A stretch of DNA of 64,000 nucleotides, taken from Octopus vulgaris (taxonomy: Eukaryota). The DNA lies in NCBI GenBank assembly GCA_951406725.2, contig OX597815.1:10416001-10480000 (forward strand), read 5' to 3'. This document shows positions 30,633 to 47,958 of this stretch, piece after piece; the first letter of the stretch is position 1; every line of letters starts with the position of its first letter. The notes beneath the pieces are model-generated. The model was not told the DNA's origin. It made no database searches and worked only from the letters and a program-made list of their open reading frames with translations. The position numbers and the translations under genes are program-made.

Positions 30633-31425
30633 GGCGCAGGAGTGGCTGTGTGGTAAGTAGCTTGCTAACCAACCACATGGTTCCGGGTTCAGTCCCACTG
30701 CGTGGCATCTTGGGCAAGTGTCTTCTGCTATAGCCTCGGGCCGACCAATGCCTTGTGAGTGGATTTGGTAGACGGAAACTGAAAGAAGCCTGTCGTATAT
30801 ATGTATATATACATAGGCGCAGGAGTGGCTGTGTGGTAAGTAGCTTGCTAACCAACCACATGGTTCCGGGTTCAGTCCCACTGCGTGGCATCTTGGGCAA
30901 GTGTCTTCTGCTATAGCCTCGGGCCGACCAATGCCTTGTGAGTGGATTTGGTAGACGGAAACTGAAAGAAGCCTGTCGTATATATGTATATATATATATT
31001 GGAAGGTTTGGAGATGATGTACAGGTATTATATATTAGAAAAAATGAGGTAATCAGATCGGATGGTTCATATTTATAGATATTTATTTATATATTACATT
31101 TTTTACATATATATCATATCATTCAGATCATATCATTCGGATTATTAGCGCTTTCTCCCAATCCAGTGGGGTTTTCAAATCAAATCGTATATATATATAT
31201 ATATGTATGTGTGTGTGTATGTGTTTGTGTGTCTGTGTTTGTCCCCCTAGCATTGCTTGACAACCGATGCTGGTGTGTTTATGTCCCCGTCACTTAGCGG
31301 TTCGGCAAAAGAGACCGATAGAATAAGTACTGGGCTTACAAAAGAATAAGTCCAGGGGTCGATCTGATCGACTAAATGCGGTGCTCCAGCATGGCCGCAG
31401 TCAAATGACTGAAACAAGTAAATAA
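30633..31425 (+). mobile_element. SINE family C with duplicated 5' half and an insertion in its internal (TA)n
   Basis: Head repeated at 30633 and 30816; foreign sequence about 31000-31187; tail resumes about 31205. Confidence 0.9.
31142..31183 (-). ncRNA. Minimal hammerhead motif, U3:A8 core variant
   Basis: ttgat-TTGAAAA-cccca-ctggat-tggga-GAAA-gcgc-TA-ataa; palindromic stem III AGCGCT; stem I weak. Confidence 0.5.
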
Positions 31426-31747
31426 AAAAAAAAAAAAAAATGAAATTTGGTCTCTTATGTCCTCTGGATCGAGAATATTATAAACCCACAAACACTGCAA
31501 GAGATATTACTAAAAGCTAATAGAAAACTCATTTTTAAAAAAGTATGTTTTTGTCCCCAGAATTAAAATAAAATTGGTTTCATATTTGTTAAAATTCTGT
31601 TCGCATGTTTTACTGAAGCTTAGATTGAACGATTTTCTAAATTGATTGCACTCAACCAATTTTGAGTAAATAAACACTCTTGGAGCAACTGGCGATTGTC
31701 AGTATGTTTCTCAAACAATTTATCCAAAATATACCAAATTCATGTGA

Positions 31748-32490
31748 TCTATCTATCTGTCTATCTATCTATCTATCTATCTATCTATCTATCTATCTAT
31801 CTATCTATCTATCTATCTATCTATCTATCTATCTATCTGTCTGTCTGTCTGTCTGTCTGTCTGTCTATCTATCTATCTATCTATCTATCTATCTATCTAT
31901 CTATCTATCTGTCTGTCTATCTATCTATCTGTCTATCTATCTATCTATCTATCTATCTATCTATCTATCTATCTATCTATCTGTCTGTCTGTCTATCTGT
32001 CTGTCTATCTGTCTATGTGTCTGTCTATCTGTCTATCTATCTATCTGTTTATCTGTCTATCCATCTGTCTATCTGTCTGTCTGTCTGTCTGTCTCTTTCT
32101 CTCTCTCTCTCTCACACTCTCTCTCTCTTTATATATATATATATATATATATATATATATATATATATATATATGTTTGATGTGTGAATAAACACGGGCA
32201 AGGCTATGTACTAGCATATGTCAGTATATATGTATGTGCATCTATCTATCTATCTATCTATCTATCTATCTATCTATCTATCTATCTATCTATCTATCTA
32301 TCTATCTATCTATCTATCTATCTATCTATCTATCTATCTATCTATCTATCTATCTATCTATCTATCTATCTATCTATCCATCCATCTATCTATCTATCTA
32401 TCTATCTATTTATCTATCTATCTATCTATCTATCTATCTATCTATCTATCTATCTATCTATCTATCTATCTATCTATCTATCTATCTATC
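31748..32490. repeat. (TCTA)/(TCTG)/(TA) microsatellite complex
   Basis: Direct repeats. Confidence 0.95.
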
Positions 32491-33519
32491 TTCCCAAGAT
32501 GCAAATTAATCCACACATTGCAACACACACTCTCACATGAGGTCAATTTCTCTTACACACACACACTTAGCTGTCTAATATCCAATTTCAGACGCCCTGA
32601 GAAGTCAGTCAAAGATATATCACTTTGTTTACTACAAACGTTAAGTTGCCTTGGAAGCTGAAAACGGTCAACTTGAAGATAGTTGCAAACACTCTCTCTT
32701 TCCCCCGCTCTCACTCTCTAGTTTTCTTTCCACTTTATCTCTCTCTCTCTCTCTCTCTTTCCTTTTCGCTATCTCTTGCAATATTCTATCAGTTTGCTTT
32801 TAATCAAAGATGTCGTTTTAGATAAATAAGCAACTAAATTCAAACCAGAATTTGTAAACAAAATAATGCGGAATGATATGTCATCGTAAAGTGTTTTAAT
32901 TTGAAATTGTAACAAAAGCGATATAGTCTTAAACAACTCAGCCATTTCAGTTTGATAAAACCTCGAACGGACGTTGAGGTGGCGGGAGGAAACAGAAGAT
33001 GAAGAGAAACCTAAAGCCAGCAATCAATTAACCGAATTTAAATCATTGAGCTTGTTTATATTCAAGGATCTAGGATATCATTTCAGTGCTATGGGCCGTA
33101 ATAATTGTTGCTTCATTTACTTCTCAATTATTCAAAAAGAAGTAAATATAAAAAGACATAAAAGTGCATCGTATTCAATGTTTGAGTCTTGTTATTTATT
33201 CGTTTGTTTATTTCCTTTTGTATATTTTGTATTCCTCGAAGAAGAAAACAAAACTGAACGTCTACCAGCGCTATCTTGAAATATATATCTTTTGCTGTAG
33301 TAATAGCATTCCATCAGTTTTCAGGGTGACAAATTGGGGTGTATTATATCGTTGTAGGTGATATTCCAGTGTTATAAATTGCCGCGTGTAATACCGTAAT
33401 GTGTGATATTGTATAGCGCTATATTATTGTGTGACATTTCATGGTGTCTCATACAATGCTGCAGTTTGTATGACTATGTACTGGAGTGGGATAGATTGCA
33501 ATGTAATATATCTCAGTGT

Positions 33520-33908
33520 GTGGAGGCGCAATGGCCCAGTGGTTAGGGCAGCGGACGCGGTCATAGGATCGCGGTTTCGATTCCCAGACCGGGCGTTGTG
33601 AGTGTTTATTGAGCGAAAACACCTTAAGCTCCACGAGGCTCCGGCTGGGGATGGTGGTGATCCCTGCTGTACTCTTTCACCACAACTTTCTCTCACTCTT
33701 ACTTCCTGTTTCTATTGTACCTGTGTTTCAAAGGGCCGGCCTTGTAACTCTCTGTGTCACGCTGAATATCCCCGAGAACTACGTTAAGGGTACACGTGTC
33801 TGTGGAATGCTCAGCCACTTACACGTTAATTTCACGAGCAGGCTGTTCCGTTGATTCGGATCAACCGGAACCCTCGTCGTCGTAACCGACGGAGTGCTTC
33901 CATCCATC
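33520..33908 (+). mobile_element. SINE family A, tail type A
   Basis: TSD atatctcagtgt 33508-33519 / 33909-33920. Confidence 0.93.
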
Positions 33909-45668: not shown

Positions 45669-46886
45669 TGTGTGTGTGTGTGTGTGTGTGTGTGTGTGTG
45701 TGCTAGTGTTTTCTACTATGGTCTCGGGTCGACCAAATGCTTATGAGTGGTTTTGGTAGCCAGAAACTGAAACAATCCCGTCGTATCTATCTGTCTATGT
45801 ATGTATGTATGTATGTATGTATGTATGTATGTATGTATGTATGTATGTATGTATGTATGCATGCATGCATCTATCTATCTATCTATCTATCTATCTATCT
45901 ATCTATCTATCTATCTATCTATCTATCTATCTATCTATCTATCTATCTATCTATCTATCTATCTATCTATATAGGTATGTTGGTGCAAATAGGAAAAATA
46001 GAATTAAAAATATGAGTATTTGTATAATCTTTTTAACTATTTAGCAAAAGTAACAGATTGACTCAAGGTCAGGGATTTTTGTGCGTTGACACTCTCTCTC
46101 TATATATATACACACACACAAACATATATATATTTACGCATGTGCACATTCAGTCTCAGTTGTTATATACGTATATATATATATATATATATATATATAT
46201 ATACACTCACGCATATACACATATACCCACAAATATATATATATATATATATATAGACACATATATATATATGTATGTATACAGACGTACATACCTGTAC
46301 ATATATACATATATGCATACATACATGTACCTACTTACGTACGTACACATGTATACACAGGCAAACATATACACACAAACATAGATTTATGCACACACAG
46401 AGAAGGATGAGTATGAGTAGTACGCGAAGAAGTCAATGAGAATAACAAGAGTGCAAACAAGCGAGTTTGTAAGAGAAAATGAAAGAAAACCTTTTCAGGT
46501 ATACGACACATAATTGTATGTGAAACTTTAAGGATCTTTTTTTATGCAGAAAGACGGCGATGATTATCACAAGTCAATGTTTAATGTGGAATGGAAAAGA
46601 ATACTGCAAGAACAGCAAAAAGGAATGTATCAGGAAAACAGAAGCCATAGTTATTTCGAGCAAGACGTGTTTGATCAACGAATGTTCTTGTTTAATTTTT
46701 TCCAATTTCTCGCCAACAAAGAATGAGCTGTTTTCTCATTCAGAAATACGTCTTTTTCATGAGAAATTATTCAGCATTGAAATGAGTCGTTGTATGTACA
46801 CGTCCAAGTATGCATGCATGCATATAATCATGTACGTCTGAATGCATATATGCATGTATGTACACATGTGTACATGTATGTAGGCA

Positions 46887-47276
46887 TGGAGGCGCAATGG
46901 TCCAGTGGTTAGGGCAGCGGACTCGCGGTCGTAGGATCGCGGTTTCGATTCATTCCCAGACCGGGCATTGTGAGTGTTTATTGAGCGAAAACACCTTAAG
47001 CTCCACAAGGCTCCGGCAGGGGATGGTGGTGATCCCTGCTGTACTCTTTCACCACAACTTTCTCTCACTCTTACTTCCTGTTTCTGTTGTACCTGTATTT
47101 CAAAGGGCCGGCCTTGTCACTCTCTGTGTCACGCTGAATATCCCCGAGAACTACGTTAAGGGTACACGTGTCTGTGGAGTGCTCAGCCACTTACACGTTA
47201 ATTTCACGAGCAGGCTGTTCCGTTTATCGGATCAGCCGGAACCCTCGTCGTCGTAACCGACGGAGTGCTTCCATTC
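46887..47276 (+). mobile_element. SINE family A, tail type A
   Basis: Family consensus; flanking repeat atgtaggcatg. Confidence 0.92.
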
Positions 47277-47329
47277 ATATGTAGGCATGCACGCATGGAT
47301 ATTCTTGTGTATATAAATTCATACATATA

Positions 47330-47958
47330 GGCGCATGCGTGGCTGTGTGATAAGAAGTTTGCTTCCCAACCACATAGTTTGGGGTTCAGTTCCACTGTGG
47401 GACATCTTGAGCAAGTACCTTCTACCGTAGGCCTTGGGCCGACGAAAGCCTTGTGAGTGGATTTGGTAGACGGAAACTGAAAGAAGCCCGTCGTATATAT
47501 ATATATATATATATATATATATATATATATATATATATATATATATAACAAAGTGAAGTTGTAAGGTACCGCATGAGTGGAATTATATATGAAAGAAGGT
47601 TTGAAAATGCAATTTTAAAAGATGTTTATTTACTTTACCGGTTTCACTTTTTTAGAAAAAGATTGTCAAAAGTAAAATGTAAAGCTTTGTATAAGCTTTG
47701 TTCTGTTAATTACTGGTTATCATAAAAGTATTCAAATACAGATATACACTCTTTGATAATTAAAAGAAAATGTTACAAACAGTTTACAAGGAAAAATCTT
47801 GGGAAAATACAAAAATGTTCATTAACATTTTCTTCTTCTTATTATTATCAAAGAATGTATATATATGTATTGTAATTTTTTGTGCCCAATATTTCTTACA
47901 AAGAATAAAGCCTGGGCTCGATTTCGTTGACTAAAGGCGGTGCTCCGGGCTGAAACAT
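47330..47958 (+). mobile_element. SINE family C split by a PLE-like insert (about 47548-47890) in its (TA)n
   Basis: Head 47330-47494, tail remnant 47895-47958. Confidence 0.8.
47630..47675 (-). ncRNA. Minimal hammerhead motif, U3:A8 core variant
   Basis: ttactt-TTGACAA-tctttt..aaaagt-GAAA-ccgg-TA-aagtaa; 6-bp stem I, palindromic ACCGGT. Confidence 0.65.

What the first reader, a model, noticed from the sequence alone, without database searches (positions are those of the whole stretch)
31142..47675. Three hammerhead motifs with a U3:A8 core (TTGANAA)
Seen: minus-strand motifs at 31142-31183 (TTGAAAA), 42988-43035 (TTGATAA) and 47630-47675 (TTGACAA). Each is followed by a stem II, GAAA, a different palindromic stem III (AGCGCT, ACATGT, ACCGGT), TA and stem I. 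Established: C3 and G8 form a Watson-Crick tertiary pair in the active HHR, and PLE-associated minimal HHRs with palindromic stem III can act as dimers. Inference: the double C3U/G8A change with free position 7 is covariation rather than decay, marking active variant ribozymes that a CTGANGA search misses.
Basis: partly seen in the sequence, partly recalled or inferred. Interest (0 to 1): 0.72.

Follow-up and report, generated by a model that had tools for sequence, protein, structure and literature searches.

The report
Variant hammerheads in Penelope-type repeat ends
Three real self-cutting-RNA (hammerhead) motifs with a U-A instead of a C-G pair in their core sit at the ends of short jumping-gene remnants in an animal genome; this core variant is already published, so these are well-supported but fairly ordinary new examples whose cutting is untested.

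Summary
The three motifs are real. Motif-like hits with a U3:A8 core and a palindromic stem III averaged 0.035 per shuffled window; three were observed.

Each lies within about 150 nt of the 3' end of a short element that ends in (TA)n. All three end in CAAAC(C)TTC, and elements 2 and 3 are homologous, so U3:A8 may be one ancestral change rather than three.

Contigs from four runs show that element 3 belongs to a high-copy family with (TA)n-joined ends, an optional ~27-nt tail and a 5' inversion, as in Penelope-like elements. None of the 40 variant rows shown (of 107) touches the core, so U3:A8 looks inherited rather than decayed.

The variant is published: natural U3-A8 and U10.1-U11.1 (PMC3088659), and about 1,300 U3-A8 Penelope-type motifs in Schistosoma (PMC4209133).

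Not shown: cleavage, a link to an RT/endonuclease ORF, or an excess of paired over unpaired cores under a relaxed scan. The three copies are solo and have different palindromes, so they are probably inert. New member of a known kind; low interest.

The parts
31140..31186 (-). Hammerhead motif 1 (U3:A8, C10.1-A11.1 mismatch, palindrome AGCGCU, CUA site after 31146)
30999..31186 (-). Element 1: ~190-nt insert in the (TA)n tract of a SINE-like repeat; AATAAA downstream; ends CAAACCTTCC + (TA)n
   Evidence: alignment with the uninterrupted copy at 39136-39575
42986..43038 (-). Hammerhead motif 2 (U3:A8, G10.1-C11.1, palindrome ACAUGU, GUA site after 42992)
42927..43171 (-). Element 2: between (TG)n and (TA)n; homologous to element 3; ends CAAACTTC + T-run + (TA)n
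   Evidence: (local score 80, null mean 38, 0 of 300 shuffles)
47629..47676 (-). Hammerhead motif 3 (U3:A8, U10.1-U11.1, palindrome ACCGGU, GUA site after 47636; family majority or plurality GUC)
47585..47825 (-). Element 3 body: 3' end of a high-copy repeat; main 3' end at 47584/5 joins (TA)n
   Evidence: tables 2 and 7: (TA)n loose ends at 47584 in 27, 41, 18 and 2 contigs of runs X1, X4, X6, X9
47557..47584 (-). Optional ~27-nt tail of element 3, present in a minority of family copies
   Evidence: second (TA)n loose end at 47557 in 9 (X1) and 6 (X4) contigs; depth falls about tenfold or more beyond 47576
47826..47890 (+). Inverted 5' piece of element 3
   Evidence: joints 47824/47890 and 47767/47840 on opposite strands (one contig each per run); inverted alignment

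Best explanation
The three motifs are type I hammerheads in the pseudo-LTR (3' end) of Penelope-like retroelements, left as short 5'-truncated copies in (TA)n microsatellites. In the parent element the transcript carries two pLTRs. The 6-nt palindromes of two identical motifs pair into a shared stem III (double hammerhead), U3 pairs with A8 in place of C3-G8, and the RNA is cut 3' of position 17, probably slowly and with help from the element's protein. U3:A8 became fixed in the lineage of these families, possibly once, and was then copied. SHOWN here: the motifs, high copy number of family 3, its (TA)n-joined ends, tail and inversion, and homology of elements 2 and 3. INFERRED from published work on other elements: PLE identity, dimer mechanism, cleavage. 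The three copies in this window are solo, 4.6 and 11.8 kb apart, with different palindromes, and are probably inert.
For: Motif excess over shuffles. Family 3: 1647, 2018, 841 and 58 contigs laid from four runs of four studies; summed depth about 4.7e5 over the core in X4 against 19-81 for single long contigs; two (TA)n-joined 3' ends 27 nt apart; opposite-strand joints. The 30-40-bp optional tail, inverted 5'-truncated copy and (TA)n preference are described for PLEs (PMC8557442 passages; PMC11167929 passages). Hammerhead-region variant rows shown fall at position 17 (C or U; no G row shown), loop II, stem I and II wobble sites and one stem III base; none at core positions or 10.1/11.1. Elements 2 and 3 keep the core while stems I, II and III differ and stay paired. 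The hammerhead fold costs +3.2, +4.5 and +2.3 kcal/mol as a monomer but is -13.1, -7.6 and -15.7 as a homodimer. U3-A8 min-HHRs and palindromic helix III are published for PLEs.
Against: No RT or GIY-YIG hit in 150 window ORFs scanned (150 of 198 non-low-complexity ORFs, of 476 of at least 55 aa), so no link to a PLE ORF is shown. The dimer hammerhead fold is 5-11 kcal/mol above the dimer MFE. The absence of core rows is not significant by itself (P 0.15 or 0.35) and 67 rows were hidden. A stem III G-to-A change that breaks the palindrome reaches 29% of depth in X1 (2-11% in the others), and a stem I mismatch 3-20%. With a relaxed core, unpaired 3/8 hits (10) exceed shuffles (4.65) as much as paired ones do (5 against 1.95). 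No Rfam hammerhead model matched any motif even at E 10. Elements 1 and 2 were not examined at family level.
Confidence: 0.62

Rival explanations
1. The elements are complete short non-autonomous retroelements (monomeric retrozyme-like or SINE-like derivatives of pLTRs) mobilised in trans by a PLE enzyme. The hammerhead releases the unit from tandem master copies elsewhere.
For: Depth in family 3 is concentrated in the last ~125 nt, and one contig joint suggests an internal ~113-nt repeat upstream with no ORF. No ORF in the window. Animal retrozymes are proposed to be non-autonomous PLE derivatives, often monomeric (10.64898/2026.07.22.740005, parts 1-2 of 5 read).
Against: No tandem units in the window. 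The copies have ragged or inverted 5' ends. Retrozymes are described with canonical hammerheads in 150-400-nt tandem units, whereas minimal ones go with PLEs (PMC7229834 passages).
Confidence: 0.18
2. The fold is kept as a protein-binding or packaging signal, or simply by descent. The U3:A8 lineage has little or no catalytic activity, and the double change is a founder effect rather than selection for cleavage.
For: Non-Watson-Crick 10.1/11.1 in motifs 1 and 3. A shared 3' end suggests one origin. For a lizard PLE, hammerhead mutants did not affect insertion in vitro and no RNA-seq reads ended at the site (PMC11167929). Min-HHRs cleave poorly in vitro (PMC4209133).
Against: U3-A8 cores are reported active in vitro, and U10.1-U11.1 is the best-tolerated mismatch (PMC3088659). 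All other core letters and the NUH site are kept in the diverged elements 2 and 3.
Confidence: 0.13
3. These particular copies are active in place and cut a host minus-strand transcript.
For: All three lie on the same strand with an intact core.
Against: Monomer folds are unfavourable and the three palindromes differ, so they cannot form a fully paired shared stem III. No host gene domain was found in the ORFs scanned. The element 3 copy differs from its family at many sites, as a neutral copy would.
Confidence: 0.05
4. Chance look-alikes in AT-rich DNA, or independent decay of C3:G8 motifs.
For: AT-rich sequence favours U:A. Relaxed descriptors give about 6.6 chance hits per window. Motif 1 has a weak stem I.
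Against: Exact-core, palindromic hits far exceed shuffles. Motifs 2 and 3 sit at homologous positions. No majority change at 3 or 8 is shown for family 3.
Confidence: 0.02

Closest known systems
Minimal type I hammerheads of metazoan Penelope-like elements (Cervera and De la Pena 2014, PMC4209133; main text parts 1-2 of 4 and supplement parts 1-2 of 3 read)
   Same: Type I topology; short stem I; AT-rich flanks; palindromic helix III; mostly solo copies. A U3-A8 core is reported in S. mansoni (about 1,300 hits). 2 of 56 representative rows in Fig. S3 are U3:A8, one of them PLE-associated, and 1 of 56 is U3 with G8. The shrimp PLE row has the same stem III palindrome and A17 as motif 1.
   Different: Here U3:A8 is combined with a 6-nt palindrome. 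The usual extra nucleotide after A9 plus G10.1-C11.1 is replaced by a direct G-C pair (motif 2) or by a U-U or C-A mismatch (motifs 3 and 1). No PLE ORF link is shown here.
Natural hammerhead core variants (Perreault et al. 2011, PMC3088659; passages and section 3 part 2 read)
   Same: U3-A8 covariation found in nature and stated to be active in vitro (their ref. 32, Przybilski and Hammann 2007, not seen by me); natural U10.1-U11.1 mismatch; palindromic stem III of repeat-type ribozymes.
   Different: The passages read do not describe a high-copy animal retroelement family carrying both changes at once.
PLE insertion anatomy: tail, 5' inversion, (TA)n targets (Craig et al. 2021, PMC8557442; Frangieh et al. 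2024, PMC11167929; passages only)
   Same: Optional ~30-nt tail marking two 3' ends, inverted 5' piece, microsatellite targets.
   Different: The clade (Neptune, Poseidon, Nematis, Hydra or other) cannot be assigned without an ORF.
Non-LTR retrozymes of animals (PMC7229834 passages; 10.64898/2026.07.22.740005 parts 1-2)
   Same: Short, non-coding, type I hammerhead, high copy.
   Different: No tandem units in this window; minimal-type rather than canonical hammerhead; circular RNA not tested.

Membership tests
Type I hammerhead (PLE-type minimal variant) | Core U4 G5 A6 A9 / G12 A13 A14 A15.1 / U16.1 intact | tested here: met
   3 of 3 motifs
Type I hammerhead (PLE-type minimal variant) | Watson-Crick pair between positions 3 and 8 | tested here: met
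   U3:A8 in 3 of 3; no variant row at 47669 or 47664 among 40 of 107 rows shown
Type I hammerhead (PLE-type minimal variant) | NUH cleavage site | tested here: met
   CUA, GUA, GUA; in family 3, C17 is 46-73% and U17 1-24% of depth
Type I hammerhead (PLE-type minimal variant) | Stems I and II form; stem III palindromic | tested here: met
   stem I is weak in motif 1 (2 bp + bulge + 4 bp)
Type I hammerhead (PLE-type minimal variant) | G10.1-C11.1 (usual, not obligatory) | tested here: inconclusive
   Met in motif 2; U-U in motif 3 (a known tolerated natural variant); C-A in motif 1
Rfam hammerhead families | Covariance-model match | tested here: not met
   No hammerhead family among matches up to E 10 around each motif or among the 150 of 159 rows listed for the window; not filed under an Rfam family
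Type I hammerhead (PLE-type minimal variant) | Self-cleavage, as a dimer | not testable with these tools
   Only folding energies; contigs cannot show RNA ends
Penelope-like element | RT plus GIY-YIG ORF joined to the pLTR | tested here: inconclusive
   None in 150 ORFs scanned, as expected for truncated copies; full-length relatives could not be fetched
Penelope-like element | Optional 30-40-nt tail (two 3' ends) | tested here: met
   (TA)n loose ends at 47584 and 47557 for element 3; not tested for elements 1 and 2
Penelope-like element | 5' truncation or inversion; microsatellite target | tested here: met
Penelope-like element | Partial-tandem pLTR-ORF-pLTR arrangement | not testable with these tools
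   No genome held
Non-LTR retrozyme | Tandem units each with a hammerhead | tested here: not met
   Each of the three motifs is single-copy in the window self-BLAST; the rest of the genome was not available
Non-LTR retrozyme | Circular and monomeric RNA expressed | not testable with these tools
   Only contigs were laid; run X9 is a guessed RNA run

The most novel reading that the evidence does not exclude
One (TA)n-targeting Penelope-type lineage, marked by a shared CAAAC(C)TTC 3' end, has fixed a deliberately attenuated hammerhead (U3:A8 plus a non-Watson-Crick 10.1/11.1 pair) across several families and thousands of copies. The ribozyme would then cut only as a dimer bound by the element's own protein, letting uncut RNA serve as template. 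Side-by-side C3:G8 and U3:A8 families in one genome would give a natural test of whether PLE hammerhead catalysis is under selection.
Probability: 0.15. Interest if true: 0.5.

Novelty: new member of a known kind. Interest (0 to 1): 0.22.

Why it matters
It confirms that CUGANGA-only searches and Rfam models undercount PLE-type hammerheads in repeat-rich animal genomes, a point already made in 2011 and 2014. The practical value is as a test set. A family with probably thousands of copies, next to C3:G8 families in the same genome, could show whether hammerhead catalysis is selected in PLE master lineages; the papers read leave that question open.

Tried and rejected
Genome-wide count of 3/8 combinations: no genome is held for this window.

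Rfam: only microsatellite-driven miRNA matches and other noise; no hammerhead.

Family-3 motif with 3 and 8 partly free: 0 hits in metagenome and viral contigs. A 27-nt tail stretch: 0 hits in metagenome and genome contigs.

11 of 120 had a stem II of 4 or more pairs and 1 of these 11 had a palindromic stem III, so they were treated as chance and not used.

Sequencing runs: no RNA holder listed.

Pfam on 150 ORFs: only Tc1/mariner-type and IS4/piggyBac-like transposase pieces passed curated cut-offs. No tRNA.

A hand-picked count (7 of 8 loci paired, binomial P 5.5e-4) was rejected as evidence. It dropped nine relaxed-core loci (3112, 28180, 30117, 35861, 40617, 41110, 47693, 57750, 63594), all non-Watson-Crick at 3/8, and one non-palindromic A3:U8 hit (41204). 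The unselected test is inconclusive.

Element 1 showed no whole-length homology to elements 2 or 3 (P 0.91 and 0.65).

Lunse et al. (RNA Biol 14:1499) is not in the library and is known to me only through a review passage. Earlier-finding look-ups by place and sequence returned nothing.
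Full report
OBSERVATION. The window is repeat-rich animal-type DNA: microsatellites, several 200-400-nt interspersed repeat families at 10 or more overlapping self-matches, and no long coding ORF. From memory the SINE-like repeats resemble those of octopus; this label is recalled and was not tested. All three motifs are present as described. A descriptor with positions 3, 7 and 8 free and a palindromic stem III returned 5 hits: the three U3:A8 motifs, one C3:G8 motif at 61535-61602 and one mismatched C3:A8 motif at 34350-34385. 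In 200 shuffles, U3:A8 hits averaged 0.035 per window and never reached three. Stem II is closed by G10.1-C11.1 only in motif 2; motif 3 has U-U and motif 1 has C-A.

CONTEXT. Each motif lies within about 150 nt of a 3' end that runs into (TA)n, with AATAAA or ATTAAA 6-59 nt after the cleavage site. Element 1 is a ~190-nt insert in the TA tract of a SINE-like repeat whose other copies lack it, so it is younger than that copy. Elements 2 and 3 align over about 175 columns (score 80, null mean 38, 0 of 300 shuffles). They keep the core while stems I, II and III differ and remain paired. Element 1 is not alignable overall, but CAAAC(C)TTC followed within 8 nt by a TA run occurs three times on both strands of the window (3 of 9 occurrences of the motif), at exactly these three ends (a pattern noticed after the fact). 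The three motifs are therefore not three independent covariation events and may descend from one.

FAMILY OF ELEMENT 3. The stretch 47552-47890 was laid with contigs of four runs from four studies and three organism labels; X1 may be the window's own source. 1647, 2018, 841 and 58 contigs were laid. Summed depth over the core is about 4.7e5 in X4, where single long contigs have depth 19-81. This points to thousands of copies, although the tool warns that depth is not a copy number. Loose ends into (TA)n cluster at 47584 (27, 41, 18 and 2 contigs) and at 47557 (9 and 6), which defines an optional ~27-nt tail. Opposite-strand joints and a direct alignment show that 47826-47890 is an inverted 5' piece. 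These match PLE features in PMC8557442 and PMC11167929 (passages).

CORE CONSERVATION IN THE FAMILY. Of 107 variant rows, 40 were shown. None is at positions 3-9, 10.1, 11.1, 12-15.1 or 16.1. Rows do occur at position 17 (C 46-73% of depth, U 1-24%), loop II, two stem sites that mostly give G-U wobbles, and one stem III base (29% in X1, 2-11% elsewhere) that breaks the palindrome. Had this copy differed from the family majority at 3 or 8, such a row should rank among the best supported, so U3:A8 and U10.1-U11.1 are most likely the family state (inference). The lack of core rows does not prove selection (P 0.15-0.35), and 67 rows were not visible.

PAIRED VERSUS UNPAIRED. In the window, exact-core hits are 3 paired of 4 (shuffle means 0.06 and 0.35). 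With one further core mismatch allowed there are 15 loci, 5 paired and 10 unpaired, against shuffle means of 1.95 and 4.65. The window alone does not decide the question.

MECHANISM. As monomers the hammerhead folds are unfavourable (+2.3 to +4.5 kcal/mol). As homodimers with a 6-bp intermolecular stem III they are -7.6 to -15.7, though still 5-11 above the dimer MFE (nearest-neighbour model, no tertiary terms). This fits the double-hammerhead model for PLE pLTRs in tandem transcripts (PMC4209133; review PMC6765202 passage). Published rates for such motifs are low. In one PLE, cleavage needed the element's protein and was not required for insertion in vitro. The copies here are solo with different palindromes, so they are probably inert remnants. 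Cleavage, expression and PLE clade are all inferred, not shown.

COMPARISON. Natural U3-A8 covariation and a natural U10.1-U11.1 mismatch are both in PMC3088659. PMC4209133 reports about 1,300 U3-A8 min-HHRs in Schistosoma, found through a PLE, and lists palindromic helix III in shrimp, flies, rotifers and mosquitoes. Its Fig. S3 has 2 of 56 rows with U3:A8. Four searches listed no paper describing this combination in this animal group. The library lacks the most relevant paper (Lunse et al.) and most subscription journals, and I did not see part 3 of the PMC4209133 supplement or any supplement of the other papers, so this is weak evidence of absence. Earlier notes of this scan reached the same verdict for U3-A8 motifs in other genomes (not independent evidence).

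VERDICT. Observation confirmed; interpretation partly supported. The motifs work like PLE dimeric hammerheads and meet the sequence features of the type I minimal variant. Membership of the carrier elements in the PLEs is likely but not shown. New member of a known kind, interest 0.22.

Noticed in passing
window 48178-48492: Inverted repeat (96.5% arms) next to (TA)n with a C3:G8 minimal hammerhead on each arm (48281-48316 minus, 48353-48388 plus), again with U opposite U next to the core; looks like an inverted pair of PLE pLTR ends.
   Followed up: partly
   Followed up: partly
window 61640-61807: Inverted repeat carrying a C3:G8 core with U4C (CCGACGA) on both arms and a near-palindromic stem III; pieces of the adjoining sequence recur near 62192-62237 and 62541-62664.
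   Followed up: partly
window 34201-34489: Older inverted repeat (88% arms) with a hammerhead-like motif at its centre (34350-34385, plus) that has a mismatched C3:A8 core: a possible decayed or junction-damaged copy and the one exact-core unpaired case.
   Followed up: partly
window 40154-40181 (-): Typical minimal hammerhead layout with C3:G8 but U at position 6; the element also ends in AAAC-pyrimidines-TATA.
   Followed up: partly
window 60341-60604: Long inverted repeat (94% arms) next to (TA)n with a small central hairpin; no hammerhead was returned by the scans.
   Followed up: no
window 44732-45475 (+): Broken Tc1/mariner-type transposase: HTH_Tnp_Tc3_2 (E 7.7e-10) and DDE_3 (E 9e-12) in separate frames.
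   Followed up: no
window 40646-40975 (+): Transposase fragment, DDE_Tnp_1_7 (E 1.9e-07).
   Followed up: no
window 30630-30998: Tandem duplication (183-nt spacing, 99.5% identical) of the 3' half of the SINE-like repeat directly beside the element 1 insertion.
   Followed up: no
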